From NCBI GenBank assembly GCA_030425745.1, contig JAUHZW010000001.1:1-49912 (forward strand): a stretch of DNA of 49,912 nucleotides. Reading direction: 5' to 3'. The position numbers and the translations under genes are program-made. The number at the start of each line of letters is the position of its first letter. Positions within the stretch are counted from its first letter, which is position 1. This DNA is from Actinomycetes bacterium. GTDB taxonomy: Bacteria; Actinomycetota; Actinomycetes; S36-B12. A model generated the notes under the pieces. It saw only the letters and a list, made by a program, of their open reading frames with translations. It searched no databases and was not told the origin of the DNA. Positions 293 to 36,377 of this stretch are shown piece by piece.

Positions 293-1318
293 TCATCGTG
301 CCACTCGCACCGGATCGGCGGCCCGGAGCATGGCGGCGAGCGCGGAGCGGTCCACCTTGCCCGCGGCCGTCGGGGGCAGGGAGTCGACGACGAACCACTG
401 TGCCGGGCGCTGCGCAGGCGCCAGCACCTGGCGGGCCGCACCGCGCAGCCGTTCGACATCGGTGGGGTCGGTCACGGCGGCGACGACCACCGCGCCGAGG
501 CGCTCATCGGGCAGACCGACCACGCAGATCTCACCCCGGGCCTCGGCGCTCAGCGCGGCCTCCACATCGGCGACCAGAACCGTCACACCCGCCGTGGTCA
601 CCGCATCCGTCCCGCGGCCCGCCACCGTGAGCACGCCGTCGCTCATCCGGCCGAGGTCGCCGACCGTCATGAAGCCCTGTGCGTCGCGCTGCAGGGGTCC
701 GTCGCCGTCCGGGCCTTGGCCACCCGGTTCGTCGTACCGCGCACAGACATAGGGAGACCGCACCCAGATCACGCCGTCGATGATCGCGACCTCGACCCCG
801 GGAAATGCCCTGAGCCCATCGCCGCGGTCCCAGGCCACGAAGGACAGCTCGCTCGCGCCGTAGTAGTGGTGCACGACGAGGCCCGCCGCTGCCGCACGGT
901 CACGCAGGGCCGTCGGCAGCGCATCGCCCGCGACGATCACCGTGGTGCCCGGGCGCAGGAGGTCGTCGTCCACGGTGCGTCGCAGGGACAGCGGCGTGAG
1001 GTGCGCATGGGTCGCGGCGCCGGGTGCGGTCGCCAGCGCGGCCGCCGCATGCTCGGCATGGATCCGTGCGAAGAGGTTCATCGTCGCGGTGAGGGGCCCG
1101 GGGATCCACACATGAGAGTCGCCATCGATGCCGGAGAGGTCTGTGACCGCTTCGAAGGACAGCGCCCACGACTCCGGGGTGCGCAGGATGCGCCGCGGCC
1201 GGCTGGTCGTGCCCGATGTCGGCAGCGAGATCAGCCGACCCTCATCTCGGGCATGACGGAACCCCTCGACGGGATCCGCCCAGGCCGTGAGGTCGATGGA
1301 CTCAGCCGACGGGGGCAT
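293..1318 (-). CDS. Short AMP-dependent synthetase/ligase (ANL superfamily, MenE-like size)
   Basis: 341 aa. Motifs seen: TSGTTSRPRRI (AMP/P-loop motif), YYGASE, TVGDLG, and a C-terminal AAGKVDR catalytic Lys motif. The N-terminal subdomain is much shorter than in typical ANL enzymes of about 500 aa. Confidence 0.7.
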   Translation of the reverse strand: MPPSAESIDLTAWADPVEGFRHARDEGRLISLPTSGTTSRPRRILRTPESWALSFEAVTDLSGIDGDSHVWIPGPLTATMNLFARIHAEHAAAALATAPGAATHAHLTPLSLRRTVDDDLLRPGTTVIVAGDALPTALRDRAAAAGLVVHHYYGASELSFVAWDRGDGLRAFPGVEVAIIDGVIWVRSPYVCARYDEPGGQGPDGDGPLQRDAQGFMTVGDLGRMSDGVLTVAGRGTDAVTTAGVTVLVADVEAALSAEARGEICVVGLPDERLGAVVVAAVTDPTDVERLRGAARQVLAPAQRPAQWFVVDSLPPTAAGKVDRSALAAMLRAADPVRVAR

Positions 1319-20831: not shown

Positions 20832-20909
20832 CCCGCCACGGTAACCCACGCAGACCGAGGGCCGCGAGCGGAGGATCACTCCGATCGCGGCCCCGGAATC
20901 CTGCGGGCT

Positions 20910-20958
20910 GTGACCACTCGAACGGCTAGTGACCACTCGAACGGCCAGTGACCACTCG
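20910..20958. repeat. 19-bp tandem repeat array C (about 2.6 copies of GTGACCACTCGAACGGC[T/C]A)
   Basis: Direct reading gives copies at 20910-20928 and 20929-20947, plus a partial copy at 20948-20958. It is intergenic, between the DUF2516 gene and the repeat-protein gene. Confidence 0.9.
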
Positions 20959-20990
20959 CGGGGGGGGTGTTGAGAGGTCGGGCCCCCGCG
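20957..20990 (-). terminator. Candidate GC-rich stem-loop downstream of the 21002-21541 gene
   Basis: CGCGGGGG (20957-20964) pairs with CCCCCGCG (20983-20990) across an 18-nt loop. There is no U-tract. Confidence 0.25.
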
Positions 20991-21001
20991 CTTCTCACGG
21001 G

Positions 21002-21541
21002 TCAGACGCCGACGGCCTCGCGCAGCAGCGTCACGGCGTGGGTCACGTTGCCCTTGACGCTCGACGCGGTGTGCGACGCCCGCTCACGGGCCTCGCCGGC
21101 CAGCGCCGACACGTCCGGCAGTTCGACCTTGGGCACGTCCAGCTTGGGCAGCTCGAACTTCGGCACGTCGACCTTGGGCAGCTCGAACTTCGGCACATCC
21201 AGCTTCGCGAAGTCCACCTTGCGCAGGTCCAGCTTGCTCAGATCGACCTTGCTGAAGTCCACCTTGCGGGGATCGATCCGGCTGAAGTCCGGGGTCGGCA
21301 CATCGAAGCCGGCCACGTGCACGGTCGAGGCCTTGGCGGCAGTCGCGGCCTTCTTGGCCGACGAGGAGGCCTTCTTGGTCGAGGCCTTCGCCGTCGTGGT
21401 CGCCTTGGCAGTGGCGTCCTTCGCGGTCTCCGTGGCCTTGGTCGCGGCCTTCTTCGTGGTCGTCGAGGCCTTGGTCGCGGCCTTCTTGGTCGTCTTCTTC
21501 ACGCGCGCGGTGGCGTGGGCCGACGTGTTCTCAGCGGTCAT
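21002..21541 (-). CDS. Lys/Ala/Thr-rich basic protein with pentapeptide-like repeats (occupies the HbhA/Rv0475 position)
   Basis: 179 aa from the ATG at 21541, with GAGGA 9 nt upstream. Residues 14-72 form a KKAATKA-type basic low-complexity region, and residues 83-142 hold about 10-12 tandem 5-residue units. It lies downstream of the XRE regulator and upstream of DUF2516. Confidence 0.7.
   Translation of the reverse strand: MTAENTSAHATARVKKTTKKAATKASTTTKKAATKATETAKDATAKATTTAKASTKKASSSAKKAATAAKASTVHVAGFDVPTPDFSRIDPRKVDFSKVDLSKLDLRKVDFAKLDVPKFELPKVDVPKFELPKLDVPKVELPDVSALAGEARERASHTASSVKGNVTHAVTLLREAVGV
21116..21295 (-). repeat. Coding 15-bp periodic repeat (pentapeptide units K-[VLF]-[DE]-[LFV]-x)
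   Basis: The translation reads PDFSR IDPRK VDFSK VDLSK LDLRK VDFAK LDVPK FELPK VDVPK FELPK LDVPK VELPD. The DNA shows near-identical 30-bp blocks (ggcacgtc.a.cttgggcagctcgaacttc). Confidence 0.85.
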
Positions 21542-21968
21542 GATGATCGTCCTCACTTGTGGTGTTGGTGGTGCTCTCTGGCTGGGTGTCGCCAGGGGCT
21601 TCGGTGCCTGTCCGGGCGGCGTTCTCGGACTGGAACGCTGCGTAGATCTGCAGCAGGGTGGCCCGCTGCCGCTCGGTCAGGGTGGCGTCGGCCGCGATGG
21701 CCGTCGTGACGGTGGCATCTCCCGCACGATCGTCGAGAATGCCGGCCTGGACGTAGAGGGTCTCGGCCGAGATGCGCAGACCCTGCGCGATCCGACCGAG
21801 GATCTCCGCGCTGGGATTGCGCAGCCCCCGCTCGACCTGGCTCAGGTAGGGGTTGGAGACCCCGGCAGCCTGGGCCAGCTGACGCAGGGACATCTGCGCC
21901 TGATCCCGCTGCTCGCGGATGAATCCGCCGAGGTCTCCGATGCCTGCCATGTCACCAGTATTACCCAT
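21531..21968 (-). CDS. XRE-family HTH transcriptional regulator (Rv0474-like)
   Basis: HTH_3 motif: IREQRDQAQMSLRQLAQAAGVSNPYLSQVERGLRNPSAEIL. The start could be the ATG at 21968 or the one at 21950. Confidence 0.8.
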   Translation of the reverse strand: MGNTGDMAGIGDLGGFIREQRDQAQMSLRQLAQAAGVSNPYLSQVERGLRNPSAEILGRIAQGLRISAETLYVQAGILDDRAGDATVTTAIAADATLTERQRATLLQIYAAFQSENAARTGTEAPGDTQPESTTNTTSEDDHHDR

Positions 21969-33066: not shown

Positions 33067-33981
33067 ATGATCCGCGCCGCCGGTGTGGTGCTGCTGCGCG
33101 ACACGGACGAGGGGCAGGAGTTCGTCCTCGTGCATCGGCCCGGGCGACAGGACTGGTCGCTGCCCAAGGGCAAACTGGATGCGGGCGAGCACGTGCTGTC
33201 TGCGGCACTGCGTGAGTGCGACGAGGAGACCGGCTACTGGCCGTTGCTGCAGGCACCGCTGCCCCTGCAGTCGTACAGCGTGGACGGGCGCCCGAAGGTC
33301 GTGCACTACTGGAAGGCGAGGGTCCGCGAGGAGAACGGTTTCGCCCCGGATGATGAAGTCGACGAGGTGCTGTGGCTGCCCGTGACCGAGGCTCCGCATC
33401 GGCTGACGTATCCGTCGGAGGTGGACCTCGTCGCACGGGCCGCCCTGCTGCCCGACACCTCGCCGTTGATCCTGCTGAGACACACCAAGGCGCTCAAGCG
33501 CTCTGACTTCGACGGCAAGGTCGATGCGGAACGTCCGCTGAGCGGGCAGGGGCGATCGCAGTCGAAGGCCCTGGTGCCGATCCTGGACGCCTTCGGGGTG
33601 ACGGAGGTGCGGTCGAGCCCGTCCCGACGGTGCCACGACACCGTCGCCCGATTCGCGAAGAGCATCGACGCGACGGTGGCGACCGAGACCGTGCTGACCG
33701 AGGAGGCGCACCGCGAGGACCCGGCGGCGGCGGATGCCCGGATCGCGGAACTGACCCAGCAGGCGGCTGCGACCGTGGTGTGCTCGCACCGACCGGTGCT
33801 GGCGACGGTCATCGGGGCGGCTGCGCGTGCCCTCGGGGTCGACCCGGCGGAGGAGCGGTGGCGCGACGTGCTCGACCCGCGCCTGTCTCCCGGTGGGTTC
33901 ATCGTGTTCCATCGCGACGTGGCGCCGGATGGGAGCCTGCGGGCCGTCGAGATCGAACGCCACGTCATCCCCAAACCCTGA
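33067..33981 (+). CDS. mutT1: Nudix hydrolase fused to a histidine-phosphatase (SixA-like) domain, MutT1-like
   Basis: Nudix box GKLDAGEHVLSAALRECDEETG followed by LLRHTKA (RH phosphatase motif). An alternative GTG start lies at 33052. Same position as mutT1 next to ppk1 in mycobacteria. Confidence 0.8.
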   Translation: MIRAAGVVLLRDTDEGQEFVLVHRPGRQDWSLPKGKLDAGEHVLSAALRECDEETGYWPLLQAPLPLQSYSVDGRPKVVHYWKARVREENGFAPDDEVDEVLWLPVTEAPHRLTYPSEVDLVARAALLPDTSPLILLRHTKALKRSDFDGKVDAERPLSGQGRSQSKALVPILDAFGVTEVRSSPSRRCHDTVARFAKSIDATVATETVLTEEAHREDPAAADARIAELTQQAAATVVCSHRPVLATVIGAAARALGVDPAEERWRDVLDPRLSPGGFIVFHRDVAPDGSLRAVEIERHVIPKP

Positions 33982-33984
33982 CCG

Positions 33985-34087
33985 CGAACGGCTACGCGGC
34001 GCACGAACGGCTACGCGGCGCACGAACGGCTACGCGGCGCACGAACGGCTACGCGGCGCACGAACGGCTACGCGGCGCACGAACGGC
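33985..34087. repeat. 19-bp tandem repeat array A (5.4 copies of CGAACGGCTACGCGGCGCA)
   Basis: Five perfect copies lie at 33985-34079, with a partial sixth copy. The array begins 3 nt after the mutT1-like stop codon. Confidence 0.95.
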
Positions 34088-34114
34088 CTGTGGACAGCGA
34101 TGCGCCGTCCACAG
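34088..34114 (+). terminator. Candidate stem-loop following array A
   Basis: CTGTGGAC-N11-GTCCACAG, a perfect 8-bp stem with no U-tract. It could terminate the ppk-CHAD-mutT1 operon. Confidence 0.3.
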
Positions 34115-34164
34115 GCCAGCGATTGCCTCTGGTCAAGGCGCACTCTCGGCCCTGTTATGACGGG

Positions 34165-35025
34165 ATGGAAATTCTTCATTCACATCGCGATGGAACAGCC
34201 GTCGGCCGCATCCCCGTGGGCGCAGAGGGCTGGACTACACCTGCTCGCGGGATTCGAGTGTCCGGCGAACGTGCGCTCACTCACGCGCTGACCACGCGCG
34301 CGCTGATAGAAGCGGCGGGGCGCCCCGCTTTCGCGTGCGATCTGACCGCAGCGCATCTCTGGTCCATGGTGGTGCCCAGTGGCTTCGGCCTGGAGGTCGA
34401 TGCTCAGGCGTGCGCAGTTGCCACCGTCCGCAATGGCAACCGACTGCAGTCTCGGGGCACGCGCGGACGCCGACTGGAACTCCCTGACGATCACGTCACC
34501 CTCCTAGATGGAATCCCCATCACCACGCCGGCCCGCACGTGGGTCGATTGTGCAGCTCTCGTCAGATGGGCCGACGTTGTCGCCATGGGTGATGCCCTCT
34601 GCCGTGCGGGACTCGCCAGTGCCCAGGATCTGGCAGCGATGACGGTCTGGGCCAAGGGCCGACGGGGCGTGCGGCTTGCCCGCAAAGCCCTTGAGATCCT
34701 TGACTCACGTGCTGAGTCCCCGGCGGAATCGTGGGTCCGCGCCTTCCTGCACATAGCTGGCATCGCGATGCCCGAGTGCAATCCCACTGTCACGATCGGA
34801 GGGAATCGGTTCCGCTTGGACATGGCCTGGCTCCGCGAGCGTGTGGCGCTCGAGTACGACGGAGTCGACTTCCACGGACCCGACCGCCACGCCTACGACC
34901 AGTGGCGGCGCAGGCTCCTGCGCGATGCTGGCTGGGTCATCATCGTGGTCACGAAGGAAGACTTATCGGACTTTGGAAGGGTCGTAGAAAAGCTCGATTG
35001 GCTGTTGCGCGAGCGTGCGGCATAG
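34165..35025 (+). CDS. DUF559 / Vsr-like PD-(D/E)xK endonuclease-fold protein with an AbiEi-like N-terminal region
   Basis: About 286 aa from the ATG at 34165. The central motif GIPITTPARTWVDCA and the C-terminus ESPAESWVRAFL...RFRLDMAWLRERVALEYDGVDFHG...RRRLLRDAGWVIIVVTKEDL match the common actinobacterial DUF559 pattern. It has visibly more A/T-ending codons than its neighbours. Confidence 0.7.
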   Translation: MEILHSHRDGTAVGRIPVGAEGWTTPARGIRVSGERALTHALTTRALIEAAGRPAFACDLTAAHLWSMVVPSGFGLEVDAQACAVATVRNGNRLQSRGTRGRRLELPDDHVTLLDGIPITTPARTWVDCAALVRWADVVAMGDALCRAGLASAQDLAAMTVWAKGRRGVRLARKALEILDSRAESPAESWVRAFLHIAGIAMPECNPTVTIGGNRFRLDMAWLRERVALEYDGVDFHGPDRHAYDQWRRRLLRDAGWVIIVVTKEDLSDFGRVVEKLDWLLRERAA

Positions 35026-35119
35026 CGCGCCCCGCAGCCACTCGCGCGCCCCGCAGCCACTCGCGCGCCCCGCAGCCACTCGCGCGCCCCGCAGCCACTC
35101 GCGCGCCCCGCAGCCACTC
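35025..35119. repeat. 19-bp tandem repeat array B (5 copies of GCGCGCCCCGCAGCCACTC)
   Basis: Five perfect copies begin inside the TAG stop of the DUF559 gene and end 25 nt before the glgC stop. The reverse complement (GAGTGGCTGCGGGGCGCGC) matches the array A unit at 14/19 positions. Confidence 0.95.
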
Positions 35120-35126
35120 GGCGAGA

Positions 35127-35155
35127 GGGTGAGGGGACGGGGGGTCAGGGTTGGG
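35127..35155 (+). other. G-quadruplex-type motif (five G-runs of 3 or more)
   Basis: GGGTGAGGGGACGGGGGGTCAGGGTTGGG on the plus strand, spanning the glgC stop codon. Confidence 0.4.
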
Positions 35156-36377
35156 CGGTGACGCCCTTGCCCAGGCAGACCACGCCGCCGTCGCTCACCG
35201 TGTACAGCTCCCGGTCGCGATCCAGATCCACGCCGATCTGCGCACCGTCCGGGACCTCCACGTTCTTGTCCAGGATCGCGTGCCGCACCACCGCATTGCG
35301 GCCGATCTTCACGCCCGGCATGATCACGCTGCCCTCGACGTACGCGCCCGCATCGACGAACACGTTGCTCGCCAGCACCGATGTGCGCACGTGCGCCCCC
35401 GACACGATCGTGCCGGCGCCCACCATCGACTCGTGGGCGTTGCCGCCCTCGACGAACTTCGCCGGCGGGAGCGGCGGCAGGTTCGACAGGATCGGCCAGC
35501 GCCGGTTGTAGAGATTGAAGATCGGGTGCACTGACACCAGGTCCATGTGCGCATCGTGGTAGCTGTCGAGGGTACCGACGTCACGCCAGTAGCCGGCGTC
35601 GCGCTCGGTCGCACCGGGGACGACGTTCGCCGCGAAGTCGTACACCTCGGCGACGCCCTGCTCGGTCAGCATCGGGATGATGTTGCCGCCCATGTCATGC
35701 ACCGACGCGGGGTCGGCCGCATCCGCCATGAGTGCCTCGAGCAGCACGTCCGTGCTGAACACGTAGTTGCCCATGGACACATAGCAGTGCTCGTCGTCAC
35801 CGGGAATGGTCGGCGGATCCGCCGGCTTCTCCAGGAACTGGGAGATCTTCCGGCCATCCGGCGCGGCCTGGATCACGCCGAACTGATGCGAGATCGACTT
35901 CGGCATCCGGATGCCCGCCACCGTGACTCCGGCACCGCTGTCGATGTGCGCCTGGATCATCTGCATCGGATCCATGCGGTACACGTGGTCGGCGCCGAAG
36001 ACGACGACGTAGTCCGGCTGCTCGTCGTACACGAGGTTCAGGCTCTGGAAGATCGCATCGGCACTGCCCGTGTACCAGCGCGGCCCGAGGCGCTGCTGAG
36101 CCGGAACCGGGGTCACGTAGTCACCGAGCAGGGTCGGCATCCGCCACGTCTGCGTGATGTGACGGTCCAGACTGTGCGACTTGTACTGGGTCAGCACACA
36201 GACGCGCCGCAGGCCCGCGTTGATGAGGTTCGACAGGACGAAGTCGACAAGGCGGTAGGAGCCGCCGAAGGGGACGGCAGGCTTGGCCCGATCCGCCGTC
36301 AGCGGCATGAGCCGCTTGCCTTCACCCCCGGCAAGGACCATCGACAGCACGTGCGGATCGCTGCTCACACTGCGCAC
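35145..36377 (-). CDS. glgC: Glucose-1-phosphate adenylyltransferase
   Basis: [26 protein letters not shown]-terminal motif and a C-terminal left-handed beta-helix region. 410 aa. Confidence 0.95.

What the first reader, a model, noticed from the sequence alone, without database searches (positions are those of the whole stretch)
33985..35119. DUF559 endonuclease-fold gene bracketed by inverted 19-bp tandem arrays between two convergent core genes
What the sequence shows:
- Five perfect copies of CGAACGGCTACGCGGCGCA start 3 nt after the mutT1-like stop.
- Five perfect copies of GCGCGCCCCGCAGCCACTC start within the stop codon of the DUF559 gene and end 25 nt before the convergent glgC stop.
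- The reverse complement of unit B matches unit A at 14/19 positions, with the same period and the same copy number. The arrays therefore act as composite inverted terminal repeats.
- The enclosed gene uses visibly more A/T-ending codons than its neighbours (gaa att ctt cat tca cat; tta tcg gac ttt gga agg gtc gta gaa aag).

Inference: DUF559/Vsr-fold genes are multicopy in actinobacteria and their spread is unexplained. This layout looks like a discrete insertion cassette that may encode its own nuclease but has no transposase or integrase. I do not know of a described element with tandem-array termini like this.
Basis: partly seen in the sequence, partly recalled or inferred. Interest (0 to 1): 0.75.

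Follow-up and report, generated by a model that had tools for sequence, protein, structure and literature searches.

The report
Nuclease gene flanked by its binding-site arrays
A small gene for a DNA-binding nuclease sits between two mirror-image arrays of 19-base repeats that are probably its own binding sites, and the same layout recurs across a very large uncharacterised actinobacterial gene family, which gives that family a directly testable function.

Summary
Two perfect 19-nt tandem arrays (33985-34087, 35025-35120) in inverted orientation bracket a gene (34165-35025) with atypical codon usage (GC3 0.71 against 0.84-0.91 in its neighbours).

It is not a local oddity. In about 60 related loci the homologous gene is flanked by units of 17-22 nt that share a GAGTGG-type core. 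Each upstream unit is the reverse complement of its downstream unit.

The protein is a full AbiEi-like DNA-binding module fused to a Vsr/EDxHD-type nuclease. AbiEi proteins are known to bind about 23-bp repeats next to their own gene.

A DnaA-box-like word (TCCACA) lies between the upstream array and the start codon in 52 of 71 loci.

The elements fill convergent-gene junctions, show copy-number variation between samples, and are present or absent between close relatives. Gene-less versions of the arrays also exist.

Paralogues are old, and the orthologue diverges at the pace of its neighbours. This is therefore a long-lived repeat-plus-nuclease system, closest in logic to REPIN-RAYT, and not an actively hopping cassette.

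I found no published description. DNA binding, cleavage and the mode of spread are inferred.

The parts
33985..34087 (+). Upstream array A: 5.4 perfect copies of CGAACGGCTACGCGGCGCA. The core is CGAACGG, a variant of the family core CGAGTGG.
   Evidence: TRF. Exact search. Family core.
34085..34117 (.). Hairpin whose two arms are DnaA-box-like 9-mers: CTGTCCACA on the - strand (34089-34097) and CCGTCCACA on the + strand (34105-34113). Both fit [TC][TC][GA]TCCAC[AC].
   Evidence: Inverted repeat I5. Motif present in 58/77 loci and 52/71 non-redundant loci against 5.5 expected. Consensus from PMC4285127 and PMC3583192.
34165..34722 (+). Gene, N-terminal 186 residues: AbiEi-like two-domain DNA-binding module.
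   Evidence: Model pLDDT 86.6. The only Foldseek hit of note is 6y8q, S. agalactiae AbiEi: probability 0.99, TM 0.47-0.49 over 174 columns, Foldseek E 0.008. PADLOC AbiEi E=7.9e-8. Pfam AbiEi_1 weak.
34723..35025 (+). Gene, C-terminal ~100 residues plus stop: Vsr/EDxHD-type PD-(D/E)XK nuclease. D219, E230, Y231, D232, G233, D245, R248 and R249 are invariant.
   Evidence: Alignment. Pfam MTES_1575. PDB profile hits 3hrl and 3r3p. Foldseek 3r3p (I-Bth0305I catalytic domain): TM 0.68, probability 1.0, Foldseek E 0.013.
35025..35120 (-). Downstream array B: 5.1 perfect copies of GCGCGCCCCGCAGCCACTC, which is the inverted orientation of the unit (rc = CGAGTGGCTGCGGGGCGCG). It overlaps the stop codon by 1 nt.
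   Evidence: TRF. Exact search. 14/19 match to array A in inverted orientation.
20906..20958 (.). Solo array of a related unit (GTGACCACTCGAACGGCTA x2.8). It carries both the CCACTCG and CGAACGG cores and has no nuclease gene nearby.
   Evidence: TRF. Search. No paralogue in the window by tblastn. Context.

Best explanation
**What it is.** The gene encodes a sequence-specific DNA-binding nuclease, made of an AbiEi-like module fused to a Vsr/EDxHD-type nuclease domain. The 19-nt units on both sides are its cognate binding sites, one protein per unit, as AbiEi proteins do with their 23-bp repeats.

**How it persists.** Gene plus inverted site arrays form a self-contained, long-lived genetic element. 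It lives in the space between convergent genes and is mostly inherited vertically. It is occasionally lost, leaving gene-less arrays, and occasionally gained. In logic it is an actinobacterial counterpart of the REPIN-RAYT partnership, with a different enzyme.

**Array dynamics.** The arrays grow and shrink by replication slippage. That explains the perfect copies and the copy-number differences between samples.

**Proposed action (inferred).**
- The upstream array acts as an operator for autoregulation.
- The DnaA-box pair ties expression to replication status.
- The nuclease nicks or cuts at or next to cognate arrays. Recombinational repair from a gene-bearing copy then places or restores the gene between inverted arrays, which is homing-like gene conversion.

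**Shown.** The architecture, its family-wide conservation, co-variation of the two arms, the conserved core, the DnaA-box-like word, the insertion context, VNTR behaviour, presence/absence polymorphism, the domain folds and the conserved catalytic residues.

**Inferred.** DNA binding to the units, cleavage, DnaA involvement, and homing-like propagation.
For: **Family-wide layout.** 27 loci have tandem arrays on both sides, and in 26 of them the upstream unit equals rc(downstream unit) at 14-22 of 17-22 nt. L088, at 11/20, is the exception. Shuffled units average about 10 and the direct orientation is at chance. Most middle-clade loci have significant flanking inverted repeats, often a two-unit hairpin on each side.

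**Units.** They share a G-A-G-T-G-G core, at 38-56 of 59 loci per position, while the rest of the unit is lineage-specific. This holds among proteins only 30-40% identical.

**Protein.** The N-terminal 186 aa match AbiEi. AbiEi and Rv2827c bind 23-bp repeats set as inverted and tandem pairs upstream of their own gene (PMC7319586). The nuclease domain is closest to a characterised homing endonuclease and to DUF559, with invariant acidic residues.

**DnaA-box-like word.** TCCACA occurs on the coding strand in 52/71 loci against 5.5 expected. It is the most widely shared enriched 6-mer outside the unit cores.

**Context.** 20 of 27 elements lie between convergent genes, and the arrays typically end 0-10 nt from both stop codons.

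**VNTR.** Copy number moves in 19-nt steps among ten population samples.

**Presence/absence.** L011 against L095/96. Window against L093, where CHAD is 84%, NUDIX 90%, glgC 95% and glgA 94% identical but the nuclease is absent and A-like and B-like units remain.

**Gene-less forms.** Back-to-back inverted arrays L098, L104 and L154. Solo arrays with the same unit near elements.

**Old and vertical.** The nuclease is 65-66% identical where CHAD is 66-69%. Paralogues are mostly 53-62% identical. There are no phage hits, and plasmid hits are only about 30% identical on chromosome-sized records.
Against: - There is no experimental evidence for binding or cleavage.
- The array-first metagenome scan found no nuclease gene beside any of about 35 arrays of period 17/19/20.
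- A split-palindrome homing model does not explain middle-clade loci, where each flank is itself a complete hairpin.
- It also does not explain L014, where the arrays bracket a second gene.
- No pair of near-identical elements at different sites was found, so there is no direct trace of a recent copying event.
- In the window the two arms match at only 14/19, at the low end of the family range.
- The DnaA-box reading rests on sequence resemblance alone.
Confidence: 0.5

Rival explanations
1. Stationary toxin-antitoxin-like or defence gene. The AbiEi-like module autoregulates through the upstream operator array and keeps a toxic nuclease tethered to flanking 'sponge' sites. The nuclease is released on phage attack or stress. 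The element never moves by itself, and presence/absence reflects ordinary deletion and horizontal transfer.
For: - AbiEi fold and profile matches.
- AbiEi-family autoregulation via repeats upstream of the gene.
- Old paralogues and vertical inheritance.
- Low GC3, typical of accessory genes.
- Correlated copy number on the two sides could reflect dosage matching.
Against: - No AbiEii/DUF1814 partner gene is nearby.
- There is no PADLOC hit to a defence nuclease, only to AbiEi.
- A regulator does not need a second, inverted array beyond its stop codon.
- Gene-less inverted arrays and solo arrays elsewhere are not expected for a simple operator.
- Indel edges coincide exactly with array edges.
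Confidence: 0.25
2. Replication-linked element. The iteron-like arrays plus DnaA boxes plus a gene for a winged-helix site-binding protein copy the logic of iteron plasmid origins. Alternatively, the oppositely oriented protein-bound arrays act as a polar replication-fork barrier around the gene.
For: - Direct repeats of 17-22 nt in arrays on both sides of the gene for a DNA-binding protein.
- DnaA-box-like words adjacent to the upstream array in most loci.
- From my own knowledge, the P1 and F replicons have 19-bp iterons on both sides of rep with DnaA boxes.
Against: - No similarity to Rep proteins. The N-terminus matches AbiEi only.
- No AT-rich unwinding region was seen.
- The family is chromosomal, with no plasmid or phage copies.
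- A nuclease domain is not part of iteron initiators.
Confidence: 0.08
3. Conventional cut-and-paste or copy-paste transposon. The tandem arrays are multi-site terminal inverted repeats, as at Tn7 ends, and the PD-(D/E)XK nuclease is the transposase.
For: - A single-gene unit of about 1.1 kb with inverted ends.
- A clean 1.03-kb indel.
- Several copies per genome.
- TnsA of Tn7 has a restriction-endonuclease fold and appears among weak structural matches.
Against: - No target-site duplication.
- No near-identical copies within a genome, mostly 53-62%.
- The orthologue stays at the same site across lineages.
- No strand-transfer enzyme is present.
- Arrays sometimes bracket extra genes or stand alone.
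Confidence: 0.07
4. Invertible segment. Recombination between the inverted arrays flips the gene as a phase-variation switch.
For: - Inverted arrays of up to about 100 bp flank the gene.
- 'DUF559 domain-containing protein' is enriched (odds ratio 14) among predicted programmed-inversion targets in a survey (PMC9881135).
Against: - The unit polarity relative to the gene, and the DnaA-box-like word on the coding strand upstream, are the same in essentially all loci.
- The presumed promoter region lies inside the inverted segment, so flipping would change nothing obvious.
- All ten population contigs have one orientation.
Confidence: 0.05
5. Two unrelated local VNTRs that happen to flank an ordinary gene.
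For: Intergenic tandem repeats do occur in actinobacteria, and copy number varies between samples.
Against: - The same arrangement occurs in dozens of loci, with arm-to-arm reverse complementarity far above shuffles.
- The core is conserved across the family.
- The two units are confined to this locus in the window.
Confidence: 0.02

Closest known systems
REPIN-RAYT systems (REP sequences and REP-associated tyrosine transposases; PMC3116915, PMC3337134)
   Same: - A single gene flanked by inverted copies of a short repeat.
- The repeat also occurs without the gene, including as two-unit hairpins.
- Extragenic location at gene ends.
- Mostly vertical inheritance over long times.
- Several co-resident lineages, each with its own repeat variant.
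   Different: - The enzyme here is an AbiEi-like module plus a Vsr-type PD-(D/E)XK nuclease, not an HUH Y1 transposase.
- The repeats form head-to-tail tandem arrays.
- Gene-less copies look far less numerous than REPINs, about one per 100 kb in the flanks sampled.
- The host is Actinomycetota.
AbiEi antitoxins of type IV AbiE toxin-antitoxin systems (S. agalactiae AbiEi, M. tuberculosis Rv2827c; PMC7319586)
   Same: - The N-terminal 186 residues have the AbiEi two-domain fold.
- AbiEi proteins bind repeats of about 23 bp, arranged as inverted and tandem sets next to their own gene, one protein per repeat.
   Different: - No AbiEii/DUF1814 toxin gene is present.
- A nuclease is fused instead.
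- Repeats lie on both sides of the gene, in up to 5-7 contiguous copies, and also away from the gene.
EDxHD (Vsr-like) homing endonucleases such as I-Bth0305I (PMC3239194)
   Same: - The nuclease domain is the best structural match (TM 0.68).
- The architecture is an N-terminal DNA-binding region plus a C-terminal Vsr-like catalytic domain.
- According to that paper, I-Bth0305I acts as a dimer on a pseudo-palindromic site.
- The gene shows presence/absence polymorphism between relatives.
   Different: - It is not in an intron or intein and not in a phage.
- It is flanked by repeat arrays.
- The DNA-binding part is AbiEi-like, not NUMOD/HTH.
- No evidence of recent spread.
Iteron-type plasmid replicons (e.g. 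P1 repA with incC/incA, F repE; my own knowledge, not tested here)
   Same: - Arrays of 17-22-bp direct repeats on both sides of the gene for the protein that binds them.
- DnaA boxes beside the upstream array.
   Different: - Chromosomal location.
- No Rep homology.
- No AT-rich unwinding element.
- Contiguous units.
- A nuclease domain is present.
Insertion sequences / MITEs, and Tn7 ends with multiple 22-bp TnsB sites plus the TnsA nuclease
   Same: - A compact single-gene unit with inverted ends made of repeated protein-binding sites.
- Gene-less derivatives exist.
- A restriction-endonuclease-fold protein takes part in Tn7 transposition.
   Different: - No DDE, HUH, serine or tyrosine transposase.
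- No target-site duplication.
- No identical copies.
- Stable orthologous position.

Membership tests
DUF559 / REase_MTES_1575 (Vsr-like PD-(D/E)XK nucleases, Pfam) | Score above the Pfam gathering threshold for PF04480 or PF18741 | tested here: not met
   PF18741 scores 26.4 bits against a cutoff of 38.2. There is no PF04480 hit at E<0.01 for the window protein. Many homologues carry precomputed PF18741 and some carry PF04480.
DUF559 / REase_MTES_1575 (Vsr-like PD-(D/E)XK nucleases, Pfam) | Vsr-like nuclease fold with conserved acidic catalytic residues | tested here: met
   Foldseek: 3r3p TM 0.68, probability 1.0; 3hrl probability 0.99. Profile hits to 3hrl and 3r3p. D219, E230, D232 and D245 are invariant.
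AbiEi antitoxin (type IV TA) | Two-domain AbiEi fold (N-terminal winged helix plus C-terminal domain) | tested here: met
   6y8q: probability 0.99, TM 0.47-0.49 over 174 columns, Foldseek E 0.008. PADLOC AbiEi E=7.9e-8.
AbiEi antitoxin (type IV TA) | Adjacent AbiEii (DUF1814 nucleotidyltransferase) toxin gene in an operon | tested here: not met
   The neighbours are a NUDIX/His_Phos gene and glgC. The same holds in L001-L013.
AbiEi antitoxin (type IV TA) | Binds repeats upstream of its own gene | not testable with these tools
   Repeats of the right size are present. Binding itself needs EMSA or footprinting.
Homing endonuclease gene (EDxHD family) | Catalytic domain homologous to the I-Bth0305I/Vsr core | tested here: met
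Homing endonuclease gene (EDxHD family) | Cleaves the gene-less allele, followed by copying of the gene into it | not testable with these tools
   Gene-less alleles exist (L093; L098, L104 and L154). No activity data.
Homing endonuclease gene (EDxHD family) | Residence in an intron or intein, or free-standing in a phage or mobile genome | tested here: not met
   Intergenic and chromosomal, with no phage match.
Insertion sequence / transposon | Transposase of a known class | tested here: not met
   Pfam, NCBIfam and PHROGs show none.
Insertion sequence / transposon | Terminal inverted repeats | tested here: met
Insertion sequence / transposon | Target-site duplication | tested here: not met
   The junctions in the window and in L011 against L095 show none.
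Insertion sequence / transposon | Multiple near-identical copies in a genome | tested here: not met
   Paralogues are mostly 53-62% identical. One pair is 76% and one pair 91%.
REPIN-RAYT | IS200/IS605-type Y1 (HUH) transposase | tested here: not met
   The protein is AbiEi-like plus a Vsr-like nuclease.
REPIN-RAYT | Gene flanked by inverted copies of a repeat that is also dispersed without the gene | tested here: inconclusive
   Flanking is met. Dispersed copies were seen only sparsely in 868 kb of flanks and in metagenome hits. No whole genome could be scanned.
Iteron plasmid replicon | Arrays of 17-22-bp direct repeats plus DnaA boxes | tested here: met
   (sequence level only).
Iteron plasmid replicon | Rep-family initiator, AT-rich unwinding element, extrachromosomal location | tested here: not met
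MIRU-type VNTR of Actinobacteria | Intergenic tandem repeat with copy-number polymorphism | tested here: met
   19-nt steps among L001-L010. From my own knowledge, MIRU units are 40-100 bp, so the unit length does not fit.

The most novel reading that the evidence does not exclude
This would be a previously unrecognised class of persistent bacterial genetic element. A PD-(D/E)XK (Vsr-type) nuclease fused to an AbiEi DNA-binding module creates, maintains and occasionally re-invades inverted arrays of its own binding sites at convergent-gene junctions. It is wired to the replication initiator through DnaA boxes. That makes it a REPIN-RAYT-like partnership built on a different enzyme and a recombination-dependent (homing-like) mode of spread. 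It would account for the multicopy 'DUF559/endonuclease domain' genes of Actinomycetota.
Probability: 0.3. Interest if true: 0.85.

Novelty: new variant of a known kind. Interest (0 to 1): 0.72.

Why it matters
The protein family is very large: 41,978 clusters at 50% identity with E<=0.001, and 2,256 at E<=1e-30. It is annotated only as 'DUF559', 'endonuclease domain-containing' or 'hypothetical'.

Three regular features turn a function-unknown family into one with explicit, cheap experiments:
- Members sit between inverted arrays of a unit with a conserved core.
- A DnaA-box-like word lies upstream of the gene.
- The elements occupy convergent-gene junctions.

The experiments are EMSA on the units, cleavage assays, and DnaA binding.

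The finding also offers a possible second example, outside the HUH transposases, of a long-lived repeat-plus-enzyme partnership in bacterial genomes.

It explains a class of perfect intergenic VNTRs that break short-read assemblies; many homologues sit on contigs of about 1 kb.

It may also explain why 'DUF559' genes were flagged among predicted inversion targets (PMC9881135).

Tried and rejected
- **Paralogues in the window.** tblastn with 22 family members found none outside 34165-35025.
- **Known RNA families.** Rfam gave only sub-threshold noise.
- **Arrays as hairpin terminators or structured RNA.** The array A region gives z = -1.9, due to the DnaA-box hairpin alone. Array B folds worse than its shuffles, z = +3.0. 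The consensus scan found no sigma-70 promoter or intrinsic terminator.
- **The 21-nt inverted repeat over both neighbours' stop codons (I2) as the true element end.** Rejected, because it is also present in gene-less L093.
- **Target-site duplications.** None.
- **The L011 252-aa ORF in the NUDIX-glgC gap as a decayed nuclease.** Unrelated, hhalign probability 0.07.
- **Plasmid or phage carriage.** No phage hits, and only distant hits on chromosome-sized 'plasmids'.
- **Array-first metagenome scan (CGAGTGG x3).** Mostly unrelated repeats of period 9/18 or low GC, with no gene-adjacent case among the 80 loci shown. It did reveal the gene-less back-to-back arrays.
- **Context of gene-less arrays.** Contigs were too short and the gene caller too crude, so the result is inconclusive.
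- **Exact-protein look-up of the window gene.** Not on record, so the source organism stays unidentified. Its relatives are Nanopelagicales-type and other Actinomycetes MAGs.
Full report
**1. The observation**

Tandem Repeats Finder reports two arrays of period 19 with 100% matching copies. One is 33985-34087 (5.4 copies of CGAACGGCTACGCGGCGCA). The other is 35025-35120 (5.1 copies of GCGCGCCCCGCAGCCACTC). Each unit occurs five times perfectly. Neither occurs elsewhere in the 49.9-kb window at up to three mismatches, apart from one probably fortuitous hit at 437-455.

Array A begins 3 nt after the stop codon of a NUDIX + histidine-phosphatase gene. Array B begins on the last base of the enclosed gene's TAG and ends 24 nt before the stop of a convergent glgC.

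In a rotated phase, rc(B) matches A at 14 of 19 positions. Shuffled units average 9.8 with a maximum of 12, and the direct orientation gives 9.

The enclosed gene has GC3 of 0.71. Its neighbours have 0.84-0.91, and 36 likely genes of the window average 0.86 +/- 0.03.

Corrections:
- The gene starts at ATG 34165, because the ME-ILxSH N-terminus is conserved.
- Pfam gives REase_MTES_1575 below its threshold and not DUF559.
- There is no target-site duplication.
- Equal copy number on the two sides is incidental at this locus.

**2. It is a family trait, not a local accident**

The closest homologues are only 58-68% identical, and many lie on contigs of about 1 kb. That fits assemblies breaking at flanking repeats.

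Ten estuarine metagenome contigs (L001-L010) carry the 65%-identical gene in the same NUDIX-glgC gap. It is flanked by CGAGTGGTGAATCTGTGCA upstream and by that unit's reverse complement downstream. Copy numbers differ between samples in 19-nt steps.

A scan of species-representative genomes returned 80 loci out of 267 confirmed relatives. TRF and a comparison script gave these results:
- 27 loci have arrays on both sides.
- The upstream unit equals the reverse complement of the downstream unit at 14-22 of 17-22 positions in 26 of them. L088, at 11/20, is the exception.
- Shuffles average about 10, and the direct orientation is at chance.
- Close relatives have periods of 17-20.
- A distant Nocardioidaceae/Propionibacteriales clade (33-40% identity) has periods of 21-22.

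The middle clade (41-47% identity) shows no tandem arrays. Most of its loci nevertheless have strongly significant flanking inverted repeats, scoring 17-50 against null maxima of 10-15. In about a dozen of them each flank is a hairpin made of two inverted units.

Aligned on their best-conserved part, units from 59 loci share a G-A-G-T-G-G core, present at 38-56 of 59 loci per position. The window's array A uses GAACGG. The remaining 11-15 nt are lineage-specific and are shared by the two arms of each locus.

**3. A third conserved piece: a DnaA-box-like word**

Between the upstream repeats and the start codon, TCCACA lies on the coding strand in 58 of 77 loci, often twice at 28-30 nt spacing.

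In an unbiased 6-mer enrichment it is present in 52 of 71 non-redundant loci against 5.5 expected. It is the most widely shared enriched word apart from the unit cores.

Its 5' context favours T/C-T/C-G/A. The high-affinity DnaA box of M. tuberculosis and S. coelicolor is TTGTCCACA (PMC4285127), and a degenerate Streptomyces form is [T/C][T/C][G/A]TCCAC[A/C] (PMC3583192).

In the window, the hairpin 34085-34117 consists of two such boxes in opposite orientation: CTGTCCACA on the minus strand and CCGTCCACA on the plus strand. DnaA binding was not tested.

**4. The protein**

AlphaFold2 gives a confident model (pLDDT 89, pTM 0.85).

The C-terminal ~100 residues match the catalytic domain of the homing endonuclease I-Bth0305I best (3r3p, TM 0.68 on the target, probability 1.0). 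A DUF559 structure (3hrl) and PvuRts1I follow. These Foldseek matches are weak by E-value (0.013 to 0.07). A sequence profile finds the same two structures. D219, E230, Y231, D232, G233, D245, R248 and R249 are invariant in 22 diverse members. I-Bth0305I is a Vsr-fold enzyme with an N-terminal DNA-binding region, and it acts as a dimer on a pseudo-palindromic target (PMC3239194).

The N-terminal 186 residues, modelled alone (pLDDT 86.6), match only one solved structure. It is the complete two-domain AbiEi antitoxin of S. agalactiae (6y8q, probability 0.99, 174 aligned columns, TM about 0.48, Foldseek E 0.008). PADLOC AbiEi profiles agree (E = 7.9e-8).

AbiEi and M. tuberculosis Rv2827c bind 23-bp repeats arranged as inverted and tandem sets upstream of their own genes, one binding event per repeat (PMC7319586). 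Units of 17-22 nt with a conserved core are therefore what an AbiEi-like module would be expected to recognise.

There is no AbiEii toxin gene nearby. No NCBIfam, PHROG or Rfam family covers the locus.

**5. Where it sits and how it changes**

In 20 of 27 loci with arrays on both sides the element lies between convergent genes. The arrays typically end 0-10 nt from both stop codons, so the element fills the whole intergenic space.

Two presence/absence comparisons are informative.
- L011 has arrays plus gene (about 1.03 kb) between the EamA and Aldedh stop codons. In L095/L096 those stops are 3 nt apart, and in L097 they are 11 nt apart.
- L093 is the window's closest relative (CHAD 84%, NUDIX 90%, glgC 95%, glgA 94% identical). 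Its NUDIX-glgC gap is 74 nt. It holds one A-like unit, a hairpin whose arms are the CGAACGG core in both orientations, and a B-like segment in the loop, but no gene.

Other relatives hold an FAD/BBE oxidase gene in the same gap. In L014 the arrays bracket the nuclease and that oxidase together.

Gene-less arrays exist in several forms:
- A solo array in the window (20906-20958) shares the CCACTCG and CGAACGG cores.
- Same-unit solo arrays lie 1-4 kb from the elements in L063, L080 and L082.
- Metagenome contigs L098, L104 and L154 carry two inverted arrays back to back with nothing between them.

**6. Not an actively hopping cassette**

Where the gene is present at the NUDIX-glgC site in other lineages, its divergence (65-66%) tracks that of the neighbouring CHAD gene (66-69%).

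Paralogues within one genome are mostly 53-62% identical, with one pair at 76% and one at 91%. This is unlike IS copies.

There are no phage copies. Plasmid hits are only about 30% identical and lie on chromosome-sized records.

The array-first metagenome scan found no nuclease gene next to arrays of period 17, 19 or 20. That sample was truncated, rich in unrelated repeats, and often at contig ends.

**7. Interpretation**

The best-supported reading is that the units are the cognate binding sites of the encoded AbiEi-nuclease fusion. Gene plus inverted site arrays then form a long-lived element of convergent intergenic regions. Array length drifts by slippage.

The logic is closest to REPIN-RAYT systems: a gene flanked by inverted repeats, gene-less repeat copies that include two-unit hairpins, vertical persistence, and several co-resident lineages (PMC3116915, PMC3337134). 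The enzyme is different, and tandem arrays are new.

I propose, as inference, three things. The upstream array autoregulates the gene. The DnaA boxes couple it to replication status. The nuclease acts at cognate arrays, so that recombinational repair can place or restore the gene between inverted arrays.

Weak points:
- There is no biochemical evidence.
- The middle-clade arrangement and L014 do not fit a simple split-palindrome picture.
- No recent copying event was caught.

The main rival is a stationary, self-regulated toxin or defence gene whose arrays are operator and sponge sites. Replication-related, transposon and invertible-segment readings are less likely. Chance VNTRs are excluded.

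**8. Novelty**

Full-text searches for DUF559 or MTES_1575 together with tandem or inverted repeats found no description of this architecture.

The nearest trace is a table in a survey of programmed inversions. It lists 'DUF559 domain-containing protein' as enriched among predicted inversion targets (odds ratio 14) without discussion (PMC9881135). Flanking inverted repeats of the kind shown here could explain that enrichment.

The family is very large: 41,978 clusters at 50% identity with E<=0.001.

I rate this a new variant of a known kind, namely a repeat-associated enzyme system built on an AbiEi-type site-binding module. It has a real chance of being a new class if nuclease-driven propagation is shown.

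Noticed in passing
window 20906-20958: Solo period-19 array (GTGACCACTCGAACGGCTA x2.8) in the gap upstream of a DUF2516 gene. It shares the CCACTCG and CGAACGG cores with arrays B and A and is followed by a run of G. No nuclease gene is nearby.
   Followed up: partly
window 21116-21290: Imperfect period 15/30/45 repeats inside ORF 21002-21556 (- strand), which has no Pfam hit. This is probably a repeat-containing protein.
   Followed up: no
window 33963-33983 and 35143-35163: A 21-nt inverted repeat (18/21) covers the last codons and stop codons of both the NUDIX gene and glgC. It is also present in the gene-less relative L093, so it is independent of the element. It may be coincidence or an old bidirectional terminator.
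   Followed up: partly
window 437-455 (- strand): A single 19-mer with 3 mismatches to unit A (CGAACGGCTGCGCGGTGCG), in what looks like coding sequence. The chance expectation is 0.12 per window.
   Followed up: no
window 35121-35144; window 20959-20967; many middle-clade loci: A G-rich run lies just outside the right-hand repeats and a C-rich run outside the left-hand repeats (e.g. CCCCCTTTCGTTGAGTGG in L036 and L047). This extends the inverted symmetry beyond the units.
   Followed up: no
L014:5883-7769 and L095-L097: An FAD_binding_4/BBE oxidase gene occupies the NUDIX-glgC gap in some relatives. In L014 it lies inside the pair of arrays together with the nuclease gene.
   Followed up: partly
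L063:3508-3584: A third array of the same 22-nt unit lies between cysS and an rlmB-like gene, one gene upstream of the element. The arrays therefore spread into neighbouring intergenic gaps.
   Followed up: partly
L011:1701-2459: A 252-aa ORF with no Pfam hit fills the NUDIX-glgC gap in this relative. It is unrelated to the nuclease family (hhalign probability 0.07).
   Followed up: yes
L049, L052, L054 ('Rubrivirga' MAG bins): Family members with period 21-22 arrays occur in bins labelled Rubrivirga. L052 is 76-80% identical to copies in actinobacterial MAGs (L055, L056). This is either mis-binning or horizontal transfer.
   Followed up: no
L001-L010 (estuarine metagenomes): The two arrays vary in copy number independently between samples of one population (upstream 1.6 or 2.6; downstream 1.8, 2.8 or 3.8). 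Across 26 loci of the family the two sides are correlated (r = 0.75). Assembly method and phylogeny are uncontrolled.
   Followed up: partly
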